Positions 1,017 to 55,267 of a DNA stretch of 64,000 bases are shown piece after piece. The position numbers and the translations under genes are program-made. The stretch spans positions 131,357-195,356 of the forward strand of contig OZ006978.1 in assembly GCA_963931155.1 (NCBI GenBank), in the 5' to 3' direction. How positions within the stretch are numbered: the first letter of the stretch is position 1; each line of letters opens with the position of its first letter. The notes under the pieces were generated by a model. It had not been told where the DNA came from. It saw only the letters and a program-made list of their open reading frames with translations, and ran no database searches. This DNA is from an uncultured Clostridia bacterium. GTDB lineage: Bacteria; Bacillota; Clostridia; TANB77; CAG-508.

Positions 1017-1235
1017 TTATAATTCCATTTCATCTTTAATTTCCTGTACTAATAAAGTTGGATCAATTGTTTCTTCTTTTCCATTATCTAACTTATCCTC
1101 TTTTTTAGCAAGTTCTGCTTCTGCAATTCTTGCAACTAATCTCCCTGCTGTTTTTATTCCTTTAATAGTATCTTTAACTCCTAACTCATTAAACTCATTT
1201 GATGCACCAGTAAGACTTCCTACTAAACCACTCAT
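1017..1235 (-). CDS. hypothetical small protein (72 aa)
   Basis: ORF whose start overlaps the upstream gene's stop (ATGA), implying translational coupling; no recognisable motif. Confidence 0.45.
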   Translation of the reverse strand: MSGLVGSLTGASNEFNELGVKDTIKGIKTAGRLVARIAEAELAKKEDKLDNGKEETIDPTLLVQEIKDEMEL

Positions 1236-7422: not shown

Positions 7423-8481
7423 CTATTGTTTATTTTCTCTTTTGTTTAATTTCTTGGTATTCAACAAAAGTTCATCAAAATCCGATATATAAATTCTGTC
7501 CTGTATTACTCTGTATTTTTCAAACTCTGTTTCAGCATGAATTTTTGCCATCTCTGCTGAAATTTTTCCATTGTCTTTTAAAATTTCATGATCCCATAAT
7601 TTTAAAAATCCATTTAATCTTTCTTCCCAATCTGCCATTGTCATTGGAATATGTCTCATAGCTTGCATTTCTGCTAAATCCAAATATGCAGATACCATTC
7701 TTTCTAGTTGCCCTATTTCTTTTTCAGATAAATAGTTTTTGGCAACAATAACATCATATTTATGTATTTTGCTGTTAGGAGCTCCTTCCCAAGAAGTTAA
7801 CCCCATGTGTTCTTTAGTACTATCTGCTCTATTATAAATTATTTCGGCAGCAGTATTCCCAGATACTGCATAATGTAATTTGTTTTGAACTGATGTAAAA
7901 AATCTAATTGTAGCTTTTGCTGTTTTATCATAATCAATTGAAGTTGCATAAATATCAGTAATTTTTTGATAAAATTTTCTTTCTGACATTCTTATTTCTC
8001 TTATACGTTCTAATTGCTCTTCAAAATATTTTTCTGTTAAAATTGAGCCACCGTTTTTTAGACGTTCGTCATCCATTACCCAACCTTTTATTGTATAATC
8101 TTTTACAATTTGATTTGCCCATTTTCTAAATTGTACAGCTCTTTCATTGTTCACTTTAAAACCCACAGCAATAATCATTTGTAAATTGTAATGTGCAACA
8201 TTCCTTGAAACATCTCTATTTCCTTCTTTTTGAACTATCTCAAAATTTCGGATAGTTGAATTTTCTTCTAATTCATTATCTTCATATATTTTTTTAATGT
8301 GATAATTAATTGTTCTTACATCAACTCCGTAAACTGCTGCTAACATTTTCTGTGTAAGCCATATATTTTCATCTTCATATCTAACTTCTACTGATTCTGG
8401 ATTGTCTCCTACTGCTGCCACATAAATTAAATACTCAGCTGCACTGGAACGAATTGTTATTTCATTTTTCTTTCTATCCAT
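7423..8481 (-). CDS. RhuM-family virulence-associated protein (full length)
   Basis: WLTQKxM, YYNLxxIIxVGFxV, FRKWANQ, FYQKITDIYATSIDYD, SVQNKLHYA - signatures recalled for Pfam Virulence_RhuM. Confidence 0.75.
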   Translation of the reverse strand: MDRKKNEITIRSSAAEYLIYVAAVGDNPESVEVRYEDENIWLTQKMLAAVYGVDVRTINYHIKKIYEDNELEENSTIRNFEIVQKEGNRDVSRNVAHYNLQMIIAVGFKVNNERAVQFRKWANQIVKDYTIKGWVMDDERLKNGGSILTEKYFEEQLERIREIRMSERKFYQKITDIYATSIDYDKTAKATIRFFTSVQNKLHYAVSGNTAAEIIYNRADSTKEHMGLTSWEGAPNSKIHKYDVIVAKNYLSEKEIGQLERMVSAYLDLAEMQAMRHIPMTMADWEERLNGFLKLWDHEILKDNGKISAEMAKIHAETEFEKYRVIQDRIYISDFDELLLNTKKLNKRENKQ

Positions 8482-15840: not shown

Positions 15841-17931
15841 CTATCTTGCTTCGCTTTCTTTGCTTCTATCTTCTCGAAGCTTTTTATCCAATTCATTCTT
15901 TCTCTGAATAATCTTTTTTCTTGAAAACAATTTTCTCATAAGTGTTTGATATGCATTAAAATTTATTGCTGAAAAATCAATTTTATCTTTTATACTTTCT
16001 AAACACTTTATTGCTGATTCTATATCTCCATTTTTATAATAATCTTTAATTTGTAAAACCATGTTAGAAATATATTCAACTTGCTCTTGTTCATCGGTTG
16101 TTGATTGTGCTTCTGATAAATTTTGTACATCAGTTGATGTTTGTGCTTCTGTTGAATTTTGTACATCAGTTGATGTTTGTGCTTCTACAACATTCATTTG
16201 AGAATCGTCTGTTTTTCTACCTATCTCATCATTTTGACCAATTATTCCTTGAGTTTTTAAAAATCTTATATCATTTTCAATAGTCGGTATAGAAAATCCT
16301 AATTTTTCTGCAATTTCAGGTGTCGAAATAGTGCCATATAAATCTGCTATTTGAGTTCTCCTATCTTTAATTGCTTTTCTTTTGGTAGTAGATAAAACAT
16401 TTATTCTTTTAGAGCTAGCCTCTATTTTTCCTCTTTGTTTTAATTCAACAATATCGGATGAAATTGTACCTATTGATACCCCCAATTCTCGAGCAATTTC
16501 TTTTTGAGTCATTTTTCCATATAATTCCGCTACTTGTTCTAATCTGGCTTCTTTTTTAGGATCTTTTCTTGCAATATTTCTTCTTTTAACTCCTTCTTCA
16601 CTTATTATTCCAATACTTATTAAGTATTTTACATCATTATAAACTGTCCCATATGAAACTCCTAAAAGTTTAGCTATTTGTTTATAACTCATTGTTCCAT
16701 ATAGCTTAGCTACTTCCATTCTTCTTTCATGTAACCTATCTACTTCTTCTATAGATGGAACTACTATACGCTTAGATTGCTGTGATTCATCAGCAATCAT
16801 CCCCATTTCTCTTAGAGCAACTAAATCATCATACACGGTATTTGGTGAAACATTAAGCTCTTTTGCAATATCTTTTTGGCTCATTTTTCCATATAGTTTT
16901 GCTACTTGCATCCTTCTGCTCTCTATTTGTTGCAATGTTTCTCTTGATGTTTTTCTCTTTAATCTGCTTGCTTCTATTAATCCATGTTCTTTTAAATATC
17001 TTATATCTTCATTTATAGTTCCAACAGTCACATCTAATTCTACTGCAATTCTTGATATTGGAATTTTTCCACGTAATCTAGCTACAGTATTTCTTCTTTT
17101 TTCTAATAACTCTTTTTGGGTTTGTAATACTCCTTTTGAAGTTAAAAAATTAATATCATTTTTTATAATAAATTCCGACACCCCAACTTCTGTTGCTATT
17201 TGTTGAACTGATACTTTTCCATATAATATTGCTACAATTTGTCTTCTCACAGCTACTGCTTCTCTATTTCGTATTAATGCTTGCCCACTTTGTTTAGAGG
17301 AACTTTCACTTTTAGTTCCTAATACCATACTATCTTCATTTACTTCATGTTCTTTTATAAATTCTATGTCTTTATCAATAATTCGTGATGATATTGTTTT
17401 AAATACTTTATATATAGTATCTATTGAAATACCAGCTTTATATAAAATTGCAATTTTTCTTCTTCTTTCTTGTAAACTATCTTCTGCCCCTTTATATTCA
17501 GCTATTATTTTAGGGACTTCATCTGCTTCGCCTGAAATTTCTTCTACTTCTTCATGAGCTTCATCTGCTTTTGTTGATTCGTTTTCTTGTATTTGTCTAC
17601 TATTTGATGCTACGTGACCTCTTTGCGATGGTATTATCCCCATAAATAGTAAATCTTCTTCAACTAAAGCTTTGGATACCCTCATTTGCTTTGCTATTTC
17701 TTCTACTGAAAGACCATAATCTAAATGTAATGAACGAATTTGGCTTCGTCTATCTTTATACTGAATTTCTCTTGATGGATTTGGCTTAGTTTTAGAAATT
17801 TTTAATCCTTCTAAATATGTTACAATGTCTGCCAAAGTCTCATGTGTTATATCAGCAATTTCTCCATAACTTAAACCTTGTTCTGCTAATTCTTCAATTT
17901 TTTTATACTCCATTTCTATATACAACTCCAA
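15841..17931 (-). CDS. large protein of about 10 tandem helix-turn-helix modules (sigma-70 region-4-like repeats) with C-terminal S/T/Q-rich repeats
   Basis: Recurring ~50-aa module xLYGKMSQKDIAKELNVSxxTVxxDxxxLxxxGxI found about 10 times; no other domain recognised. Confidence 0.6.
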   Translation of the reverse strand: MELYIEMEYKKIEELAEQGLSYGEIADITHETLADIVTYLEGLKISKTKPNPSREIQYKDRRSQIRSLHLDYGLSVEEIAKQMRVSKALVEEDLLFMGIIPSQRGHVASNSRQIQENESTKADEAHEEVEEISGEADEVPKIIAEYKGAEDSLQERRRKIAILYKAGISIDTIYKVFKTISSRIIDKDIEFIKEHEVNEDSMVLGTKSESSSKQSGQALIRNREAVAVRRQIVAILYGKVSVQQIATEVGVSEFIIKNDINFLTSKGVLQTQKELLEKRRNTVARLRGKIPISRIAVELDVTVGTINEDIRYLKEHGLIEASRLKRKTSRETLQQIESRRMQVAKLYGKMSQKDIAKELNVSPNTVYDDLVALREMGMIADESQQSKRIVVPSIEEVDRLHERRMEVAKLYGTMSYKQIAKLLGVSYGTVYNDVKYLISIGIISEEGVKRRNIARKDPKKEARLEQVAELYGKMTQKEIARELGVSIGTISSDIVELKQRGKIEASSKRINVLSTTKRKAIKDRRTQIADLYGTISTPEIAEKLGFSIPTIENDIRFLKTQGIIGQNDEIGRKTDDSQMNVVEAQTSTDVQNSTEAQTSTDVQNLSEAQSTTDEQEQVEYISNMVLQIKDYYKNGDIESAIKCLESIKDKIDFSAINFNAYQTLMRKLFSRKKIIQRKNELDKKLREDRSKESEAR
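16100..16190. repeat. 36-nt tandem repeat (about 2.5 copies) inside the HTH-repeat gene
   Basis: TGTGCTTCTG... recurs at 16106, 16142 and 16178; encodes STDVQNSTEAQT repeats. Confidence 0.8.
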
Positions 17932-18154: not shown

Positions 18155-18958
18155 CTATTTTTTATTAATTTCACTTGTTTTATATTTTACAATTCCTACA
18201 ATTGCTAAGATAAACAACGCAAGTGTTATAAGTGTTAAAACTATATTAGCCCCTGTTTGTGGCAATCTAGTATCTTTTACCATTGTCTCATCAAAAGAAT
18301 TAATTACATTTTCATCATCTGTCTCATCATCTATTTGAACTTCATTATCTTTATTTGGTTCAGTATCTATTGTAATATCTTCTCCAGGAATCATTGTATT
18401 AGTATTTTCGTTTGGTTCTTCTTCATCTGGTGTTTCTGTTCCGGGATTATTTTCTCCTGGGTTTTGAGTTCCTGGCACTAAACTATAATCCATTTCACTT
18501 CTTGGATATGTTTCGTTTAAATTATTATCATTTGTAACAGTAAAACTATTTATTGCAACTTTTCCATTTGTTGTTTCTGTAACTCTTGATGGATCTAAAT
18601 TAAATATGATTTTTCCAATTTCAATATTAGGTGTTGCAGAATCTGTTGTAAATTCAACTGTTTTATTTTCTGCTGATACTGTCACATTCCATCCTTCATA
18701 TGCTTCACCTTTTACTGTATCTACATGGTTAGTATCAAAATCAAGTGTAGCAGTTGCTTTCATAGGTGAATTTTCTGGCACATTAGCAAAATCTCCCATG
18801 TGAATTGAAAATATTATTTGATTATCTTGTTTAGTTGCTTGATAAGATACATTAACTGATGCTGGTAATTCGTTTCCATCTGTTGCATTAACTATATTCA
18901 AATTAAATGATAGTACAATTAAAACTATTAATATAAAAATTGCTAATACTTTTTTCAC
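18155..18958 (-). CDS. LPXTG cell-wall-anchored surface protein
   Basis: Signal peptide, LPQTG sortase motif followed by hydrophobic segment and KYKTSEINKK tail. Confidence 0.85.
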   Translation of the reverse strand: MKKVLAIFILIVLIVLSFNLNIVNATDGNELPASVNVSYQATKQDNQIIFSIHMGDFANVPENSPMKATATLDFDTNHVDTVKGEAYEGWNVTVSAENKTVEFTTDSATPNIEIGKIIFNLDPSRVTETTNGKVAINSFTVTNDNNLNETYPRSEMDYSLVPGTQNPGENNPGTETPDEEEPNENTNTMIPGEDITIDTEPNKDNEVQIDDETDDENVINSFDETMVKDTRLPQTGANIVLTLITLALFILAIVGIVKYKTSEINKK

Positions 18959-27904: not shown

Positions 27905-27910
27905 ATATAA

Positions 27911-28026
27911 ACTGGCGACAACCTATTTTCTCAGCAGGGTAACCCACAAATATCGTCGGCACATTGGAGCTTGACTTCTGTGTTCGGGATGGGAACAGGT
28001 ATTTCCTCCATGTCATAATCACCAGA
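27911..28026 (-). rRNA. rrf: 5S ribosomal RNA
   Basis: TCTGGTG...CGCCAGT helix I, CCCGAACAC and internal conserved blocks. Confidence 0.9.
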
Positions 28027-28238
28027 AAATTTATTTCAATACAAACTACAATAACTTCTTAAAGTAATTTGTATGAATTTACTTGTTTGTTTGTATATTG
28101 TGTGCTTCTTTTTTTGTACTCTCTTAGTATAATACTTTTTGTTTTCTTTTTCAAGTACTTTTACTAAATTTTTTTTACTTTTTTAGCACACTCAAAAATA
28201 CATAGAGAATATCTTTTCGGTTCTTCTTTATTTTTTGT

Positions 28239-31121
<2,883 letters not shown>

Positions 31122-31125
31122 TCTT

Positions 31126-31241
31126 GCTTCAGCTAAACTTCGCATTGCTGTGTCAAACTTCAGTAAAAATTCCCTCGATATACAAACGTATTATCTCGTC
31201 AATTTTTCTTCGTTTTCCTTGCTCTGCTCGTTTATCTTATG
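31126..31241. repeat. ITS repeat copy A (about 115 nt)
   Basis: GCTTCAGCTAAACTTCGCATTGCTGTGTCAAACTTCAGTAAAAATTCCCTCGATATACAAACGTATTATCTCGTC... shared with copies B and C. Confidence 0.8.
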
Positions 31242-31362
31242 CAATCTTAAATTGGTTTCATTGTTAACAAATCCTCAATGTTTAACATTGTCTCTTTGCT
31301 TTTCCTAGTTATGTCTAGTTTACCTTTAATATTCTCTATATATTTTTCAATGTGCTATTTGA

Positions 31363-31478
31363 GCTTCGTCTAAACTTCACATAACTGTGTCAAGCCTCAA
31401 TAAAAATTCCTCGATGTACTAATGTACTATCTCGTCATTTTTATTTTGCTTTCCTTGTTCTGTTCGTTTATACAGTGC
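31363..31478. repeat. ITS repeat copy B
   Basis: About 80 percent identical to copies A and C. Confidence 0.8.
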
Positions 31479-31510
31479 TCACAATTATCTTTCAATTTAG
31501 ATAATCTTTG

Positions 31511-31586
31511 TGGTGGAGCTAAAGAGAGTCGAACTCTTGACCTCCTGCTTGCAAGGCAGGCGCTCTAGCCAACTGAGCTATAGCCC
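31511..31586 (-). tRNA. tRNA-Ala(UGC)
   Basis: GGGGCTATAGCTCAGTTGGCTAGAGCGCCTGCCTTGCAAGCAGGAGGTCAAGAGTTCGACTCTCTTTAGCTCCACCA. Confidence 0.95.
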
Positions 31587-31638
31587 CATAACTTAAGTCA
31601 ATGTACTATATAAAAAGTACATTGAAAAATAAACAATA

Positions 31639-31756
31639 AACTTCTCTGGCTTCGTCTAAACTTCGTATTGCTTCGTTAAGCTTCAGTAAAAATCTCCTCG
31701 ATATACAAACGTATTATCTCGTCGATTTTTCTTTGCTTTCCTTACACTACTCGTTT
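31639..31756. repeat. ITS repeat copy C
   Basis: Third copy, between 16S 3' end and tRNA-Ala. Confidence 0.8.
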
Positions 31757-31784
31757 ATACTGTGCCATTTAGAAACTCTTCTCT

Positions 31785-33343
<1,559 letters not shown>

Positions 33344-33537
33344 AATGGTATATATATTCGCATATTTCTATGCTCTTACATATCGTTTTTAACTAAAGTT
33401 TATTTAGCTCTTTTTTACGCTTTTGCGTATTATTTTTTTTGGTAGATTTACTACCGCTTTATTGGTTTCTCAAAGTTTATTGTTTACTTTTCAATGTGCT
33501 TTTTATGTTCTCAGTCGGTCTCCCGACGACAAGATTA

Positions 33538-33645: not shown

Positions 33646-33671
33646 ATAAAAAAACAGCTTCTCAGAAGCTG
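33646..33671 (-). terminator. rho-independent terminator downstream of sortase-domain ORF
   Basis: CAGCTTC-tca-GAAGCTG followed by U7 on minus transcript. Confidence 0.65.
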
Positions 33672-33754
33672 TTAATTATAATAACATGTTACTCAAAACA
33701 AGTCAATAGTTTTTGAGAATTTTTTTATTTTTTTGAACTTATCTTTTTTTGAAC

Positions 33755-34144
33755 TTATCTTTTTTCTCTTGCAAGCACTATTGTTCTATTAGTTTCATCA
33801 TCGGTACATGTTGATAGTGAAATTTCTCGTCTTCCATTAGTACTTCTCGTCATATAATCTGTATCAGATGAATCTGTTGTAAATTTGTCATATACTTCAT
33901 ATGTAATTGTTCTACCTTTTTCATCTGAAATCAAAATCTTATCACCGTTTTTTAAGTTTTTATTATTTGAAAATAATTTTCCATCTCCATAGTTATGTCC
34001 TATTAGCACAACATTTCCTGGTTCATTTAATTTAGATGGATCATTTGGATACATCATAACTATTGCTTTTTCCATGTTTTCAACAGATATGACCTTTGAA
34101 ATCCTGTATTTTATATTGCTCACAGGAATTTCAATTGTACCTAT
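33755..34144 (-). CDS. sortase catalytic domain (His/Cys/Arg triad) with no own start, in-frame continuation of 34145-35920 after a single TGA
   Basis: IGTIEIPVSN...VVLIGHNYG...ISLSTCT...RTIVLAR; the first sortase codon directly abuts the TGA at 34145-34147 and there is no RBS. Confidence 0.6.
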   Translation of the reverse strand: MGTIEIPVSNIKYRISKVISVENMEKAIVMMYPNDPSKLNEPGNVVLIGHNYGDGKLFSNNKNLKNGDKILISDEKGRTITYEVYDKFTTDSSDTDYMTRSTNGRREISLSTCTDDETNRTIVLAREKR

Positions 34145-35920
34145 TCATTGATCTGTAGTATCAACTCCATTTTGTTCTGTTTGTTGCCCATCTTCTTGCT
34201 GAACTACAATTGCTTCATTTCCTTCTATTCCTATAGTTGCCATTTTTTCATCTAATACTTGTTTAAATGCTTCCATCCATTGTGTTATAAATGTTGTAAA
34301 CTGGTTAGCATCGTAATTATTTGCTATTACAGTATTAGAGTCATTTAATTCTTGTATAGGTTCAACCTGAGATGTAGCTACAGTGTTTGTTGTAAAATCA
34401 ATTGTTGTCGTACTGCTGGTTGTTTGATTATTAGTTGTTAAAGTAATATTATATGCATTGTTCATAGTGTTATTTGTTACCGCGCTCATATCATAAGTTA
34501 AACTTATATTGTTTGTGTATTCGCTATTAATGTTTGGAATAAATGTTATATTATTACTTGTATTTTGTTCGTTTGTAATTTTAGTTATAACAAGTCTCGA
34601 TACTTCTTGGCTTGATTCATCTTCTGTGGTAGTTGTTGCATTTAAGTCTATTACATTAGAAGTTTCTGTGTTAGTTGCATCATCTAATATTTGATTTTCT
34701 TCATCAGCAATGTTTTCTTCCGTTTGGTCTTCAGTCGTATTTTCTTCGGAAACTAAATTTTCTGATACTATATTTGATTCATTTGTTGTTATTTCGGAAG
34801 TCTCATCAACTGTTGTCATATTTCCATCTACATTATTTTCTAATTCGTTTGATGTTTGCATGTTATTTTGATTTGTACTACTTGTTATTTTTTCTATAGC
34901 ACCTTGTGTATAATCTATTGTAAGAATTTGTTTTCCACTTAATCTATCATATGTTATCTTGACAAGGTTTTCTATATCCACAACTGTTCTTATTGTTTCA
35001 TCATAATTTTCATATACATATATTGTAGTAGTATTATTTGAAAAGTCTGCACTGTTAATTGTTTCTATTATATTGTTAATTTTCATAGTAAGGTTAGTCA
35101 TATCTGTGTATTCCACACCCATATTCAATGTTGATGCCTTGTTGCTAAGCATTACCATTGTTTCTGTATCTGATTTCAATGCATTTAAGCAATCAATTAT
35201 AATTTGTTTTAATTGATCTCCTGTGAATTGTACTGCATACACATTTGCATTATATGTTTCGCCATCTATTTGTACATCTTGATTTGTTTTTGCATAATTA
35301 TCTTTACTTATACTGTTTTGTATTATTGGTATATATGTTTCATATATATGCTGTTTCTGTTCATCTGTTAATTCAAAAACATTTGAGTAGTCATCCATAA
35401 CAATTGTATCCGGTACTACATCTGTAGAAATATTGTATTTTGCTGCTAATTGTTTTAATCCTGCATTTCTAAAACCAACATATGTATCTAAAACATCACT
35501 TGATTTTATTGCATATATATCTCCATTAGTTTGATCTGCACATTTTATAAATGATACATTAAATAAATTTATGTCTCCATTTTTTAATGTTGCATCTGCA
35601 TATGTTCTTCCATTAGTTATATCGTGTCTTGCTGTTGTTGCAACATTGAATGTTTTCGAACTATCTGAGCCTTGAGTTAGCGAAAATGAAAAATTGCCTG
35701 TAGAGTTATATGAATTTCTAGATTTGTAATCTGTTTGAAAAGCTAGTTTGTCATTTTCTAATACTTTTGTAATATCTTTATTTTGTGCCATGTACGTCCA
35801 AAATTGTTCTTCATCAGATTTAAAAATATCAGTTGCAAAAAATAGTATTGCAAAAATAATTCCTATTAATACAACTGCCACAATTGGCACAACTATCATT
35901 AATATTTTTTTCTTTGTCAT
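34145..35920 (-). CDS. membrane-anchored Asn/Thr-rich extracellular protein (591 aa), possibly the N-terminal part of a sortase fusion
   Basis: N-terminal TM helix, long low-complexity N/T/S-rich ectodomain; stop codon TGA followed in frame by sortase domain. Confidence 0.55.
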   Translation of the reverse strand: MTKKKILMIVVPIVAVVLIGIIFAILFFATDIFKSDEEQFWTYMAQNKDITKVLENDKLAFQTDYKSRNSYNSTGNFSFSLTQGSDSSKTFNVATTARHDITNGRTYADATLKNGDINLFNVSFIKCADQTNGDIYAIKSSDVLDTYVGFRNAGLKQLAAKYNISTDVVPDTIVMDDYSNVFELTDEQKQHIYETYIPIIQNSISKDNYAKTNQDVQIDGETYNANVYAVQFTGDQLKQIIIDCLNALKSDTETMVMLSNKASTLNMGVEYTDMTNLTMKINNIIETINSADFSNNTTTIYVYENYDETIRTVVDIENLVKITYDRLSGKQILTIDYTQGAIEKITSSTNQNNMQTSNELENNVDGNMTTVDETSEITTNESNIVSENLVSEENTTEDQTEENIADEENQILDDATNTETSNVIDLNATTTTEDESSQEVSRLVITKITNEQNTSNNITFIPNINSEYTNNISLTYDMSAVTNNTMNNAYNITLTTNNQTTSSTTTIDFTTNTVATSQVEPIQELNDSNTVIANNYDANQFTTFITQWMEAFKQVLDEKMATIGIEGNEAIVVQQEDGQQTEQNGVDTTDQ

Positions 35921-35932
35921 ATGTTTAACCTC

Positions 35933-36691
35933 CTATAAACTTTTATTTATATTTCTTTGTTTAACAGCTTCATATATTATTATGCCAGCTGAAACTGATG
36001 CATTAAGTGATGTAACTTTGCCCTTCATAGGGATTTTTACTAAGAAATCACAATTTTTCTTAACTAATCTTCCCATACCGCTTCCTTCATTGCCTATCAC
36101 TATTCCTATTCCACATGTATAATCTTCATTATAGTAGTACTTCTTTGCCTCGATATCTGTTCCGCAAATCCACACATCATTTTCTTTTAAGTAATTTATT
36201 GCTTCATTTATATTGTTCACCCTCGCAACATTCATATGTGCCGTTGCTCCTGCAGATACTTTAGCAACTGTACTATTTACACCGCATGCTCTTCTTTTTG
36301 GAATTATTATTCCATGTACACCAGCTGTTTCTGCTGTTCTTATAATTGAACCCAAATTATGCGGATCTTCAATTTCATCCAAAATTAATATAAAAGGTTT
36401 TTCGTTTTTTACTTTTGCTGTAGCTAATATATCATCAATATCGCAATATTCAAATGGTGGCACTATAGCAATAACTCCTTGGTTATTTGGTGTTTGGGCC
36501 ATTTGATTTAATTTTGCTCTGTTTATTTCATTTATTATGACCTTTTTCTTTTTTGCTAATGCTATAATTTTATTTATTGAACCGTGTTTTTCTCCATCTG
36601 ATATATATATTTTATTTATATCTCTATCAGATTCTAAAAGCTCGAGAACTGCGTTTCTTCCTTCTACTTGATCTTGATATTCATCATACAT
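35933..36691 (-). CDS. rlmB: 23S rRNA (guanosine-2'-O)-methyltransferase RlmB (SpoU/TrmH family)
   Basis: ILILDEIEDPHNLGSIIRTAETAGV and SpoU motifs; GRNAVLELL substrate-binding N-domain. Confidence 0.85.
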   Translation of the reverse strand: MYDEYQDQVEGRNAVLELLESDRDINKIYISDGEKHGSINKIIALAKKKKVIINEINRAKLNQMAQTPNNQGVIAIVPPFEYCDIDDILATAKVKNEKPFILILDEIEDPHNLGSIIRTAETAGVHGIIIPKRRACGVNSTVAKVSAGATAHMNVARVNNINEAINYLKENDVWICGTDIEAKKYYYNEDYTCGIGIVIGNEGSGMGRLVKKNCDFLVKIPMKGKVTSLNASVSAGIIIYEAVKQRNINKSL

Positions 36692-42478: not shown

Positions 42479-43564
42479 TCATAAAGTATACTCTATTTCA
42501 ATATCATCTAAATCGATATTCTTTTCTGTAACTAATTTTACTATTTTTTGATTATCAATCATTAACTTATGCTTTTCTTCTATATTATTAGTTTCTCTAA
42601 TTAAGTCAAATAATAATTTTACTCTTACAGACTTATTATCTTTTACAGATTTAACAATGGTAAAAGTAAATTTATTATATTTTATTGCTTGATTATTTTT
42701 AGAAATATACATATTTACTAATATCGAATATTCTGCCATTTTATCAAACGGCTCTTTTGTAACACCTGTCGTGCTAATAAAATTTCCTAAAGAATAAGAA
42801 ACTAATTTATTATCTTTATATTCTATTGGTTGGATTACATGTTCGTGGTTACCTATAATTAAATCGACTCCGTTTTTTATTAAAAATTCTACAGTTTTTT
42901 TAGTCCTTTTGATTGGTTTTTTATTGTATTGTCCTCCTTCATGCATACACATGATAATACAATCAGCACCAATTTCTTTGTATTTTTTTATTTTATTTAT
43001 AATTTCCTGCCTTTTTTTCTTTGATGACTCATTTCTTTCATATACAAATTTTTTTAATTGAAAAAATCCTAAAATTGTAAATATTTTTCTTATAATTTTT
43101 ATAACTATGTTAGAACTTAAATATAATTTTCTAATCCACCAATTGCTTAATTCTTGTTTCTGAAACAAGTTAACTTTTACATTTTTATCTTTATTATTTA
43201 AATAAACGTTATTAGAAAAAGCATTTGTGCCATATGTATAAGATAGAATTGCAAATCTCATTCCATTAATATTATGAAGTTTCAGTTCCTCGTCTCCATA
43301 TGAAATTCCTGTGTTTTCAAGTTTTATTTTATTAAGAGAATCAATAGTTTTCTTTACTCCATCTATGCCATTATCTAAGCAATGATTATTAGCTGTCGTT
43401 ACTAAATCAAAACCTGCATTTTTTACAGCTTCTGCAAACTCTATTGGACTTGTAAATCTATACTGTTGATTTTTTATCTCATCATTGTTAATAGTTATTG
43501 GTGTTTCTAAATTTCCAACAATATAATCAGATTGATTTAAAAAAGTCTTTATATCTGCAAACAT
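42479..43564 (-). CDS. CapA/PgsA-family metallophosphoesterase-like protein; N-terminal signal-anchor segment is frameshifted upstream
   Basis: ASDYIVGNLE, TTANNHCLD, GNHEH motifs; a 27-codon ORF at 43581-43664 (MKRAKLTFSGDIML...) supplies the expected N-terminus in another frame. Confidence 0.7.
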   Translation of the reverse strand: MFADIKTFLNQSDYIVGNLETPITINNDEIKNQQYRFTSPIEFAEAVKNAGFDLVTTANNHCLDNGIDGVKKTIDSLNKIKLENTGISYGDEELKLHNINGMRFAILSYTYGTNAFSNNVYLNNKDKNVKVNLFQKQELSNWWIRKLYLSSNIVIKIIRKIFTILGFFQLKKFVYERNESSKKKRQEIINKIKKYKEIGADCIIMCMHEGGQYNKKPIKRTKKTVEFLIKNGVDLIIGNHEHVIQPIEYKDNKLVSYSLGNFISTTGVTKEPFDKMAEYSILVNMYISKNNQAIKYNKFTFTIVKSVKDNKSVRVKLLFDLIRETNNIEEKHKLMIDNQKIVKLVTEKNIDLDDIEIEYTL

Positions 43565-54397: not shown

Positions 54398-55267
54398 CTA
54401 GTTTTCACTACTTTCTATTAATTTGTCAAAATCAGATTTATATAGTTTATCTTGCACAACTCTATATTTTTCAAATTCCATCAATGCTTTTTCTTTTGCT
54501 ATTTCATGTGATATTTTTCCAGCATCTTTTAACACATCTCTATCATCCGATAGTAAATATTTATCTATTCTATTTGCCCAGTCTTCCATTGTCATTGGAA
54601 TATTTCTTTTTGCTCTTGCCTCTGCTAAATCTAAGAAAGCTGAAACAATTGCTGTTTGATGAGTTACTGCATAGTGCATCTTATTTTGGACTTTTTTAAA
54701 AAATTTGATTGTTGTAGGAGACTTACTATCATAATCAATAGATGTTGCATAAATATCTGTTATTTTTTGATAAAATCTTCTCTCTGACAACCTTATTTCT
54801 CTAATTTCCGCAAGTAATGATTCGAAATAATCTTCGTCAAAAAATGTTCCATTTTTCATTCTTTTTTTATCTATAATATATCCTTTTTTTGAGAACTCTT
54901 TTAATACATTTGTTGCCCATCTTCTAAATTGAATTGCTCTGTCTGTACTTACTCTATAGCCAACAGAGATTACTGCATCTAAATTATAATACTTTACTTT
55001 TCTTGTTACTTGTCTATTTCCTTCTTGTTGAACTACCGAGAATTCCTCGGTAGTTGAATTTCTATCTAATTCTAAATCATTATAAATATTTTTTAAATGT
55101 AATCCAACATTATCTGATGAACAATCATACAATTTTCCCATTGCTTTTTGAGTTAACCACAAGTCTCCATCTTCAAAACGAACTTCAATTCCGCTTTCTT
55201 TTTTCTGTTGTTCAAATATAAGAAATTCCGCCGAACCACTTCTTATATATAAATCTTTATCACTCAT
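54398..55267 (-). CDS. RhuM-family protein, paralog with about 63-aa in-frame internal deletion
   Basis: Collinear with 7423-8481 (WLTQKAM, YYNLDAVISVGYRV, FYQKITDIYATSIDYD, KVQNKMHYA) but lacks the segment equivalent to GNTAAEII...VSAYLD. Confidence 0.7.
   Translation of the reverse strand: MSDKDLYIRSGSAEFLIFEQQKKESGIEVRFEDGDLWLTQKAMGKLYDCSSDNVGLHLKNIYNDLELDRNSTTEEFSVVQQEGNRQVTRKVKYYNLDAVISVGYRVSTDRAIQFRRWATNVLKEFSKKGYIIDKKRMKNGTFFDEDYFESLLAEIREIRLSERRFYQKITDIYATSIDYDSKSPTTIKFFKKVQNKMHYAVTHQTAIVSAFLDLAEARAKRNIPMTMEDWANRIDKYLLSDDRDVLKDAGKISHEIAKEKALMEFEKYRVVQDKLYKSDFDKLIESSEN

What the first reader, a model, noticed from the sequence alone, without database searches (positions are those of the whole stretch)
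33755..35920. Sortase catalytic domain in-frame behind a single TGA at the end of a 591-aa membrane-anchored N/T-rich protein
The 591-aa ORF has an N-terminal TM and a low-complexity ectodomain, and ends with TGA at 34145-34147. The next codon in the same frame begins a complete sortase catalytic domain (IEIP..., LIGH, LSTCT, R). It has no start codon or RBS of its own. The track's start for it is a GTG inside the domain. Readthrough would give a roughly 714-aa sortase with a very large linker/ectodomain insert. Alternatively this is a recent nonsense mutation, or a sequencing artefact.
Basis: seen in the sequence. Interest (0 to 1): 0.55.

Follow-up and report, generated by a model that had tools for sequence, protein, structure and literature searches.

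The report
Conserved leaky stop joins sortase
In a group of uncultured low-GC gut Clostridia, a complete sortase enzyme domain with no start codon or membrane anchor of its own sits in frame behind one TGA stop. That stop has been kept unchanged in eight diverged lineages, so the enzyme is most likely made by occasional read-through of the stop, which is rarely documented for a bacterial chromosomal gene.

Summary
On the minus strand, a 591-codon ORF (35920..34148) encodes an N-terminal TM helix and a Pfam DUF6583 ectodomain, and ends in TGA (34147..34145). The next codon opens a complete Pfam Sortase domain of 129 codons with His50, Cys113 and Arg120.

This is not an artefact or a recent mutation. 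Eight lineages share the same gene order. Their sortase parts are 50-88% identical, and all carry TGA at the identical position: (Q/E) TGA ATA GGN ACN ATH GAR ATH CC. No sense-codon or TAA/TAG variant was found. Neighbouring genes switch between TAA and TAG.

The sortase part is under purifying selection (dN/dS 0.06-0.33), including the 22 codons before any ATG. There is no conserved start codon or SD. TGA is otherwise a rare ordinary stop in the window: no in-frame TGA in about 45 other genes, against 97 TGG.

Best explanation (about 0.65): selectively maintained UGA read-through, probably by tRNA-Trp. It would yield mostly the 591-aa surface protein plus a minor 721-aa membrane-anchored DUF6583-sortase fusion.

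Rivals are non-AUG reinitiation, dedicated recoding or selenocysteine, and pseudogene decay. None of this has been tested experimentally.

The parts
35929..35934 (-). Shine-Dalgarno AGGAGG, 8 nt upstream of the ATG of the DUF6583 ORF. It overlaps the TAG stop of the upstream SpoU/RlmB-type methylase gene.
34148..35920 (-). ORF1, 591 codons, Pfam DUF6583. It has a TM helix (residues 3-29, nt 35914..35834) and a folded beta/alpha region (residues 36-346). A disordered T/N/E-rich stretch follows (348-436, nt 34879..34613), then a second folded beta region plus helix (440-562).
   Evidence: Pfam PF20224, E 1e-14. AlphaFold2 model with pLDDT above 90 in the folded parts. Homologs listed.
34148..34219 (-). 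Disordered polar/acidic tail, residues 568-591 (NEAIVVQQEDGQQTEQNGVDTTDQ). It is the presumed flexible linker to the sortase domain. It is present in all eight read-through lineages and ends in D-Q or D-E in 7 of 8 (S-Q in one). Most outgroup DUF6583 proteins lack it.
   Evidence: pLDDT below 30; C-termini compared
34145..34147 (-). In-frame TGA, the proposed read-through (recoding) site. The context (C/G)AA TGA ATA GG is invariant in 8 lineages.
33758..34144 (-). Complete sortase catalytic domain, 129 codons, with no start codon or SD of its own. Catalytic residues are His50 (33997..33995), Cys113 (33808..33806) and Arg120 (33787..33785).
   Evidence: Pfam PF04203, 83 bits, profile 1-123/125. 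Alignment to canonical sortases and to PDB class A sortase cores. dN/dS 0.06-0.33.
33755..33757 (-). TAA, the final stop of the extended frame. It is TAA in all 7 lineages where it could be read.
34096..34134 (-). Candidate hairpin starting 10 nt after the UGA (TTGAAATTCCTGTG...ACAGGATTTCAA). Only a 6-bp AU-rich core, 12 nt after the UGA, is shared across lineages. Its role is unproven.
33653..33673 (-). Intrinsic-terminator-like hairpin plus T-run, about 80 nt after the TAA. No terminator lies between ORF1 and the sortase part.
18155..18958 (-). Candidate sortase substrate elsewhere in the window. It is a 267-aa secreted protein ending in LPQTG, then a hydrophobic stretch, then a KYKTSEINKK tail.

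Best explanation
One mRNA encodes two proteins through a selectively maintained, leaky UGA.

Most ribosomes terminate at UGA and make the 591-aa DUF6583 protein. This protein is anchored by one N-terminal TM helix with its bulk outside the cell, and it ends in a disordered acidic tail.

A minority of ribosomes decode the UGA with a near-cognate tRNA, most likely tRNA-Trp(CCA). They continue for 129 codons and make a 721-aa protein. In that protein a complete sortase catalytic domain hangs from the DUF6583 ectodomain by the flexible tail. This is the only route by which the sortase domain gets a membrane anchor and reaches the outer face of the membrane, where sortases act on LPXTG proteins.

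The stop therefore works as a ratio-setter: much surface protein, little enzyme. This is the logic of Q-beta coat/A1 or MuLV gag-pol.

What is shown:
- the anatomy of the locus;
- conservation of the TGA;
- purifying selection on the downstream frame, starting at the first codon after the TGA;
- absence of a conserved start codon or SD;
- TGA behaving as an ordinary rare stop elsewhere in the window.

What is inferred:
- that read-through occurs at all, its efficiency, and the residue inserted;
- that the fusion is the active sortase.

The likely origin is an in-situ fusion of a neighbouring canonical sortase gene that lost its own TM and linker (inference).
For: 1. TGA sits at the identical alignment column in 8 lineages with the same gene order: window, L002, L007, L015, L025, L039, L041 and L040. 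Their sortase parts are 50-88% identical and their DUF6583 parts are as low as 51% identical to the window's. A metagenome scan with the stop position left as NNN found one more relative, again with TGA. It found no relative with a sense codon.

2. No single ORF carrying DUF6583 plus Sortase appears among the listed best hits of either search: 150 listed from 1.84 billion representatives and 120 listed from 5.8 billion proteins. No focal-clade DUF6583 call is longer than 628 aa.

3. The stops of neighbouring genes (LepA, orf124, the 242-aa ORF, SpoU) switch between TAA and TAG among these lineages and are never TGA. The final sortase stop is TAA in 7 of 7.

4. dN/dS of the sortase part is 0.056 (window vs L002) and 0.15 (L007 vs L015). 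For the first 22 codons after the TGA it is 0.022 and 0.165. The DUF6583 N-domain gives 0.108 and 0.249.

5. In the 21 codons after the TGA, the variable columns by codon position are 11, 10 and 20. Of the seven invariant residues IGTIEIP, the six after the first Ile show synonymous codon variation.

6. There is no conserved SD. The first conserved canonical start is codon 24, inside the domain.

7. The domain starts exactly where solved sortase cores start, so an internal start would delete beta-1.

8. All canonical relatives, about 220 aa long, carry an N-terminal TM. The 129-aa part has none.

9. The context matches what is reported to favour read-through. UGA is the leakiest stop, and AA at positions -2/-1 is present in 8 of 8 (review PMC7026636). 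B. subtilis reads UGA through at about 6% (quoted in PMC7918605). From memory (work of the Isaksson laboratory), an acidic penultimate residue weakens termination at UGA-A; here it is Asp in 7 of 8.

10. The tail before the TGA is predicted to be disordered.

11. An LPQTG-type substrate is encoded in the window.

12. Related Clostridia encode sortase domains behind other large N-terminal domains in single ORFs, for example P0208 and P0222.
Against: - There is no direct evidence of the extended protein.
- No fused homolog without a stop was found, so the fusion has no 'Rosetta stone' precedent.
- The +4 base is A, whereas C is the classic leaky context.
- No convincing stimulatory RNA structure exists. 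Only a 6-bp AU-rich helix is shared, with a consensus energy of -0.5 kcal/mol.
- One strain variant of lineage C (L012-L014) carries a 1-nt deletion 27 nt after the TGA, so the sortase part can be lost.
- One outgroup protein (P0135) has a similar tail without any sortase, so the tail is not proof of a linker role.
- RF2, tRNA-Trp and the sel genes of this genome could not be inspected.
Confidence: 0.65

Rival explanations
1. Termination followed by reinitiation at a non-canonical start, either the invariant ATA right after the TGA or a nearby ATT. The two proteins would be made separately, and the sortase domain would be a free polypeptide of about 14 kDa.
For: The ATA codon after the TGA is invariant in 8 of 8 lineages, while the other Ile codons vary. 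The stop lies within a conserved ATGA tetranucleotide, which is typical of coupled genes (PMC6728339 listed). Lineage E has GGAG 8 nt before the ATA.
Against: The ATG of the ATGA is in another frame and opens only a 5-12 codon ORF. No SD is conserved; 4 of 8 lineages have none within 25 nt. ATA is also the commonest Ile codon in this genome at 56%. The product would have no TM or signal peptide, yet it keeps an intact catalytic triad under purifying selection, and every canonical relative is membrane-anchored. Reinitiation does not explain why the stop must be TGA rather than TAA or TAG.
Confidence: 0.1
2. Efficient, dedicated decoding of this UGA rather than background leak. Possible agents are a suppressor or 4-bp-anticodon-stem tRNA-Trp, a weakened or lost RF2 in this clade, or a site-specific recoding element. 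Under this reading the fusion is the main or only product.
For: TGA is rare in the window (3 of about 46 stops). The other two TGA stops are each followed by tandem in-frame stops 2 codons later, as expected if UGA is generally leaky. Bacterial 4-bp-stem tRNA-Trp(CCA) molecules that read UGA are now documented (PMC13092985). A short helix 12 nt 3' of the UGA shows some covariation: 43 of 48 cells paired, and 0 of 500 shuffles reach its covariation score.
Against: About 45 other ORFs have no in-frame TGA, against 97 in-frame TGG, so TGA is not a regular sense codon. The outgroup DUF6583 gene ends in TGA with nothing coding behind it. The helix is thermodynamically negligible, and it was derived from the same sequences it was then tested on. 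No tRNA or release-factor gene of this genome was available. The window holds only tRNA-Ala and no prfB.
Confidence: 0.12
3. The UGA encodes selenocysteine.
For: There is an in-frame UGA conserved across lineages. In the window lineage a hairpin begins about 10 nt after the UGA (MFE -17 kcal/mol, z = -2.75), which is roughly where bacterial SECIS elements lie.
Against: The hairpin is not conserved; 5 of 8 lineages do not form it in their MFE folds. The consensus fold energy is -0.5 kcal/mol. Canonical homologs have V, A, M or L at this column and never Cys. The position is a linker/beta-1 boundary and not a redox site. No sel genes or tRNA-Sec are in the window.
Confidence: 0.04
4. The sortase part is an untranslated, decaying remnant (a pseudogene) behind a normal stop, or the TGA is a sequencing or assembly error.
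For: One strain variant carries a frameshift in the sortase part (L012-L014). In-frame stops in bacteria are usually short-lived (PMC7918605).
Against: The frame of 127-130 codons is intact and the catalytic triad is present in all 7 lineages that could be read to the end. dN/dS is well below 1. The TGA is seen in dozens of independent contigs from ENA, Logan, NCBI and JGI, including a 1.75-Mb contig.
Confidence: 0.03

Closest known systems
Q-beta phage coat/A1 read-through, and MuLV gag-pol read-through
   Same: A single leaky in-frame stop (UGA in Q-beta, read by tRNA-Trp) separates an abundant structural protein from a C-terminal extension. The extension is made at a few percent. The stop sets the ratio of the two products, and in gag-pol the extension is an enzyme.
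   Different: Those are viral genes with experimentally measured read-through, and MuLV uses a pseudoknot. Here the gene is chromosomal in a bacterium, nothing has been measured, and there is no convincing RNA stimulator.
In-frame stop codons under purifying selection in bacterial genes (Belinky et al. 2021, PMC7918605)
   Same: There is an in-frame stop with dN/dS below 1 on both sides, interpreted as read-through that lowers expression.
   Different: That survey concluded that most such stops are short-lived, at about the SNP level, and are later reverted. Here the same TGA has persisted across 8 lineages with up to about 50% protein divergence. It also sits exactly at a domain boundary rather than inside a domain.
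Canonical membrane-anchored sortases of low-GC Clostridia (about 215-226 aa; closest solved cores are class A sortases 7f87/7cfj, B. anthracis 2kw8 and C. perfringens SrtD 4d70)
   Same: The catalytic domain is the same: 50-56% identity to uncultured Clostridia sortases, the IGTIEIP beta-1 strand, and the GHN, LSTCT and R motifs.
   Different: The canonical enzymes carry their own start codon, N-terminal TM helix and a linker of 40-80 aa. This domain has none of these, and it could only borrow the anchor of the upstream DUF6583 protein through the UGA. It reaches no NCBIfam sortase class cut-off.
Stand-alone DUF6583 (PF20224) proteins
   Same: ORF1 has the N-terminal TM, the same two conserved regions, and the same genomic position after the SpoU-type methylase gene in outgroups (L026, L042).
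   Different: Outgroup members stop at or shortly after the ..LGF/IGIE motif (P0135 carries a longer tail) and have no sortase downstream. The focal clade adds a disordered tail of 25-45 aa, the TGA and the sortase domain.
Bacterial selenoprotein genes
   Same: Both have a conserved in-frame UGA followed by a continuing ORF.
   Different: There is no conserved SECIS-like hairpin, no Cys in homologs at the position, and the site is not catalytic.

Membership tests
Sortase (Pfam PF04203, cysteine transpeptidase) | Match to the family profile above the curated threshold, over the full length of the domain | tested here: met
   83.2 bits against a cut-off of 26.6; profile positions 1-123 of 125
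Sortase (Pfam PF04203, cysteine transpeptidase) | Catalytic His, Cys (TLxTC-type motif) and Arg at the conserved positions | tested here: met
   His50 (LIGHN), Cys113 (LSTCT) and Arg120 align with canonical and solved sortases. All three are conserved in the 7 lineages read to the end; the eighth (L040) runs off its contig after His.
Sortase (Pfam PF04203, cysteine transpeptidase) | N-terminal signal or membrane anchor on the same polypeptide, giving an extracytoplasmic location | tested here: inconclusive
   Absent from the 129-codon part. It is supplied only if the UGA is read through, by the TM helix at residues 3-29 of ORF1.
Sortase classes A-F (NCBIfam subfamily models) | Score above the subfamily cut-off | tested here: not met
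   The best scores are class C at 40 bits and class E at 39.8 bits, against cut-offs of 160. No class is assigned.
Sortase (Pfam PF04203, cysteine transpeptidase) | Transpeptidation of a protein bearing a sorting signal | not testable with these tools
   A candidate LPQTG substrate lies at 18155..18958.
Functional stop-codon read-through (recoding) | The frame stays open beyond the stop and carries a protein-coding conservation signature from the first codon | tested here: met
   dN/dS 0.02-0.17 in the first 22 codons. Variable columns by codon position are 11, 10 and 20. The downstream sequence is a full Pfam domain.
Functional stop-codon read-through (recoding) | The stop codon and its identity are conserved among orthologs | tested here: met
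   TGA in 8 of 8 lineages, while neighbouring stops switch between TAA and TAG. No sense-codon variant was found.
Functional stop-codon read-through (recoding) | Leaky sequence context and/or a 3' stimulatory RNA structure | tested here: inconclusive
   The stop is UGA with AA at -2/-1 in 8 of 8, which is reported as favourable. The +4 base is A, not C. Only a marginal 6-bp helix is shared.
Functional stop-codon read-through (recoding) | The extended protein is detected | not testable with these tools
   Needs proteomics, ribosome profiling or a reporter assay.
Selenoprotein gene | Conserved SECIS hairpin just 3' of the UGA, and Cys in homologs at the same position | tested here: not met
   Consensus fold energy is -0.5 kcal/mol, and a hairpin forms only in some lineages. 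Homologs have V, A, M or L.
Reassigned genetic code (table 4 or 25, TGA as a sense codon) | TGA used inside many genes at conserved Trp or Gly positions | tested here: not met
   About 45 other long ORFs are uninterrupted under table 11. There are 97 in-frame TGG and no internal TGA.
Translational coupling by termination-reinitiation | Overlapping or adjacent stop and start (ATGA/TGATG) in the frame of the downstream gene, usually with an SD | tested here: not met
   The ATG of the ATGA is in another frame and opens a 5-12 codon ORF. No SD is conserved.
DUF6583 (Pfam PF20224) | Match above the gathering score | tested here: met
   54.6 bits against a cut-off of 27; residues 3-395.

The most novel reading that the evidence does not exclude
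The UGA may be a true recoding site rather than a background leak. In this reading a clade of gut Clostridia decodes this one UGA efficiently or in a regulated way. Candidate mechanisms are a variant tRNA-Trp, reduced RF2 activity, or the small 3' helix. A surface protein and its sortase-bearing isoform would then be produced in a set or condition-dependent ratio. That would be one of very few deeply conserved programmed read-through events in a bacterial chromosomal gene outside selenocysteine and pyrrolysine.
Probability: 0.15. Interest if true: 0.8.

Novelty: new variant of a known kind. Interest (0 to 1): 0.62.

Why it matters
Functional stop-codon read-through is well established in viruses and eukaryotes. 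In cellular bacterial genes, outside selenocysteine and pyrrolysine, it is mostly known as short-lived noise.

This locus offers a clean, deeply conserved and testable candidate. The stop lies exactly at a domain boundary. The downstream domain is an enzyme with a simple assay. The enzyme can only reach its site of action if the stop is read through.

If confirmed, it would show that bacteria use a leaky UGA to set the ratio of a structural surface protein to its tethered enzyme. It would give the uncharacterised DUF6583 family a functional partner in cell-wall protein anchoring.

It also has a practical consequence for annotation. Current gene callers report a 98-128 aa 'sortase' with a wrong internal start in every one of these genomes. 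A pipeline that classes ORFs interrupted by an in-frame stop as pseudogenes could discard this one.

Tried and rejected
- **Sequencing artefact or recent nonsense mutation.** Rejected. The same TGA occurs in 8 lineages and in many independent assemblies.
- **Genome-wide TGA reassignment.** Rejected. The ORFs in the window are intact under table 11, with 97 in-frame TGG and no internal TGA.
- **Search for a fused DUF6583-sortase ORF without a stop.** None was found among the 150 best of 1.84 billion representatives, among the 120 best of each of two searches of 5.8 billion proteins, or in GTDB genomes. The GTDB scan returned only two MAGs, both already sampled lineages.
- **Metagenome scan with the stop position as NNN.** It returned 12 stretches. 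One was a true relative, with TGA. Four were an unrelated class-C-like sortase with Ile at that position. The rest were chance matches.
- **SECIS or stimulatory structure.** RNAalifold on 4 and then 8 lineages gave 0 and 6 pairs, at -0.5 kcal/mol. Single-sequence folds are significant only in the window lineage.
- **Stop hopping.** Rejected. No matching landing codon for the CAA take-off follows the stop (sequence inspection; concept from PMC5009743).
- **ATGA coupling.** Rejected. The ATG is in the wrong frame.
- **Literature.** Nothing was found on sortase read-through or on DUF6583 function.
- **prfB, sel genes or tRNA-Trp in the window.** None found.
Full report
**1. The observation**

On the minus strand, an ORF starts at 35920 (ATG) with AGGAGG 8 nt upstream. 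It runs for 591 codons and ends with TGA at 34147..34145. The same frame continues without interruption as IGTIEIPVSNIKY... for 129 codons, to TAA at 33757..33755.

Pfam places a complete Sortase domain on these 129 residues: PF04203, 83 bits against a cut-off of 26.6, profile positions 1-123 of 125. The catalytic His50, Cys113 and Arg120 align with canonical and solved sortases. In solved class A sortase core constructs, the chain begins only a few residues before the equivalent IGxIxI strand. The codon after the TGA is therefore the true start of the domain.

After the TGA, the only canonical start codons are GTG at codon 8 and ATG at codon 24, and both lie inside the domain.

The upstream ORF is not merely low-complexity sequence. 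It belongs to Pfam DUF6583 (E 1e-14). An AlphaFold2 model built with 31 homologs gives:
- a TM helix at residues 3-29;
- two confidently folded beta-rich regions at 36-346 and 440-562 (pLDDT above 90);
- a disordered T/N/E-rich stretch at 348-436;
- a disordered acidic tail at 568-591, directly before the TGA.

The read-through product would be 721 aa. A terminator-like hairpin follows the TAA at 33673..33653, and none separates the two parts.

**2. TGA is an ordinary, rare stop in this genome**

The window is 28% GC. About 45 other long ORFs are intact under table 11. In long ORFs there are 97 in-frame TGG and no internal TGA.

Two other genes end in TGA, and each has tandem in-frame stops two codons further on. 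The window carries an rRNA operon with tRNA-Ala right after the locus. It carries no prfB, sel genes or tRNA-Trp.

**3. The arrangement is old and conserved**

The closest database sortases are all annotated as truncated ORFs of 98-128 aa. I fetched their contigs, together with those of DUF6583 homologs, one GTDB scan and one metagenome scan. This yielded eight diverged lineages with the same gene order, LepA - small ORFs - SpoU-type methylase - DUF6583 - sortase domain. They are the window, L001/L002, L007-L011/L024, L015-L017, L025, L039, L041 and L040. The two GTDB records are titled 'uncultured Clostridia bacterium'.

The sortase parts are 50-88% identical between lineages. The DUF6583 parts are as low as 51% identical to the window's.

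In all eight lineages the junction reads (Q/E) TGA ATA GGN ACN ATH GAR ATH CC. The downstream frame is open for 127-130 codons with the catalytic triad intact. It ends in TAA in all seven lineages that could be read to the end.

The metagenome pattern left the stop position free (NNN). The only true relative it found again had TGA. No sense-codon variant and no single ORF carrying both domains appeared in any search.

Stop codons of the neighbouring genes do turn over between TAA and TAG among the same lineages, and none is TGA. The window species alone is represented on many contigs, one of them 1.75 Mb long. A sequencing artefact and a recent nonsense mutation are therefore excluded.

**4. 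The sequence behind the TGA is translated, from the first codon**

| Region | dN/dS, window vs L002 | dN/dS, L007 vs L015 |
|---|---|---|
| Sortase part | 0.056 | 0.15 |
| First 22 codons after the TGA (before any ATG) | 0.022 | 0.165 |
| DUF6583 N-domain | 0.108 | 0.249 |

These values are Nei-Gojobori estimates. The more saturated pairs give about 0.3 for the sortase part.

In the 21 codons after the TGA, the variable alignment columns by codon position are 11, 10 and 20. Of the seven invariant residues IGTIEIP, the six after the first Ile show synonymous codon changes. An untranslated remnant would not keep this pattern, and it would not stay open in 28% GC DNA.

**5. How it is translated**

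No SD is conserved before the TGA or before codon 24. Four of the eight lineages have no SD-like motif within 25 nt.

The stop lies within a conserved ATGA, but that ATG is in another frame and opens only a 5-12 codon ORF. Reinitiation at the invariant ATA cannot be excluded. However, ATA is also the commonest Ile codon here at 56%. The product would lack any membrane anchor or signal peptide, whereas all canonical relatives of about 220 aa have an N-terminal TM. Reinitiation would also not explain why the stop has to be TGA.

The features fit read-through:
- UGA is the leakiest stop, and AA at positions -2/-1 (8 of 8 here) is reported to favour read-through (PMC7026636).
- B. subtilis reads UGA through at about 6% (quoted in PMC7918605).
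- The penultimate residue is Asp in 7 of 8 lineages. From memory of work from the Isaksson laboratory, an acidic penultimate residue weakens termination at UGA-A. I did not verify this.
- Canonical sortases have V, A, M or L at the column of the TGA. Trp inserted by near-cognate tRNA-Trp should be tolerated there, and selenocysteine is unlikely.

No convincing RNA stimulator exists. RNAalifold gives -0.5 kcal/mol for a 6-bp AU-rich helix 12 nt after the UGA. That helix shows some covariation: 43 of 48 cells are paired, and 0 of 500 shuffles reach its covariation score. But it was derived from the same sequences. Only the window lineage has a clearly stable hairpin (z = -2.75).

**6. Origin and logic (inference)**

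Outgroup DUF6583 genes, at most 46% identical, sit in the same place after the SpoU-type gene. They end at or shortly after the ..LGF/IGIE motif and have no sortase behind them (L026/27 end in TAA TAA; L042/43 end in TGA). P0135 (L026/27) is the exception, discussed below.

Focal-clade proteins add a disordered tail of 25-45 aa, the TGA and the sortase domain. In lineage E the next gene is argS, as it is behind canonical sortase genes in L020-L022. A simple scenario is that a neighbouring canonical sortase lost its own 5' part and came to lie in frame behind a leaky stop.

Selection would then keep TGA for two reasons. TAA or TAG would abolish the enzyme. A sense codon would convert all of the surface protein into the fusion.

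The window encodes a typical substrate: a signal peptide, then LPQTG, a hydrophobic stretch and a basic tail, at 18155..18958. It also encodes much cell-envelope polysaccharide machinery. No second sortase is in the window.

**7. Caveats**

- No experiment supports read-through.
- One strain variant of lineage C, seen in three assemblies, has a 1-nt deletion 27 nt after the TGA. The sortase part can therefore be lost.
- One outgroup protein has a similar tail without a sortase.
- The DUF6583 fold gave only generic beta-sheet and half-barrel matches, so no function could be inferred.
- The release-factor and tRNA complement of these genomes could not be examined.

**8. Comparison with what is known, and verdict**

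The mechanism resembles Q-beta coat/A1 and MuLV gag-pol read-through. In-frame stops under purifying selection have been surveyed in bacteria and were judged mostly short-lived (PMC7918605). This one has been kept across eight lineages and sits exactly at a domain boundary. I found no report of sortase read-through or of DUF6583 function.

I classify it as a new variant of a known kind. The finding is real and is not an artefact. Maintained UGA read-through that produces a membrane-anchored DUF6583-sortase fusion is the best explanation, at about 0.65.

Noticed in passing
L012:4001-4040, L013, L014 (lineage C variant): There is a 1-nt deletion (gcatttgat to gcattgat) 27 nt after the TGA, seen in three assemblies. 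It shifts the sortase part into the frame of the ATG that overlaps the stop (ATGA). Gene callers then report a 128-aa ORF, MNRNYRNTSIDLKY..., which lacks the IGTIEIP strand. This is probably a loss-of-function strain variant, although two of the assemblies have low coverage.
   Followed up: partly
window 18155..18958 (-): A 267-aa secreted protein carries a classic sorting signal: LPQTG, a hydrophobic stretch, then KYKTSEINKK. It has no Pfam domain. It is a candidate substrate of the sortase.
   Followed up: partly
window 34096..34134 (-); alignment A4 columns 28-33 with 57-62: A short helix 12 nt 3' of the UGA has 43 of 48 cells paired and two covarying pairs. It extends to a 13-bp hairpin only in the window lineage (z = -2.75). 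It could be a stimulator or a by-product of conserved codons.
   Followed up: partly
window 42479..42481 and 1232..1234 (-): The only two other TGA-terminated genes in the window are a PGA_cap/CapA-like gene and a 181-aa ORF. Each has tandem in-frame stops two codons downstream (TGA aga atg TAA TAA; TGA gtg gtt TAG TAA). This is suggestive of back-up for a generally leaky UGA, but with only two cases.
   Followed up: no
window 34146..34148 (-) and the same site in all 8 lineages: An ATG overlaps the TGA (ATGA) and opens a conserved tiny ORF in another frame, MNR(N/Y)..., of 5-12 codons. Its significance is unknown. It may simply follow from the conserved AA before the TGA.
   Followed up: partly
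window 15841..17931 (-): A 696-aa protein is built of many repeated helix-turn-helix units. It hits 46 different HTH-type Pfam families through repeated short segments. This is an unusual architecture.
   Followed up: no
L025:323-2135: In this contig LepA is split into two overlapping ORFs of 251 and 360 aa. This is a frameshift or an assembly error.
   Followed up: no
P0326 (823 aa) and P0383 (567 aa), outgroup proteins: These are single ORFs that combine the SpoU methylase domains with DUF6583. The neighbouring genes are fused in these assemblies, either by stop loss, by frameshift or by an assembly problem.
   Followed up: no
L025:6103-7830 and L020:4896-6686: argS follows the read-through sortase in lineage E, and it also follows the canonical sortase pair in L020-L022. 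This hints that sortase-argS adjacency is ancestral and that the fusion arose in situ.
   Followed up: no
P0172, P0208, P0222: Related gut Clostridia encode unusual sortase architectures in single ORFs. One is a tandem double sortase of 502 aa. One has a sortase behind a repeat-rich N-terminal region and carries its own LPQTGS anchor (435 aa). One has an extra N-terminal domain (343 aa).
   Followed up: no
window 27910..33344 (-): A complete rRNA operon (16S - tRNA-Ala(TGC) - 23S - 5S) starts about 400 nt downstream of the sortase stop. Many contigs of relatives end here, which limits downstream synteny.
   Followed up: no
window 7423..8481 and 54398..55267 (-): There are two RhuM-family ('virulence protein RhuM') genes in one 64-kb window. 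The second matches the profile in two stretches and may be disrupted.
   Followed up: no
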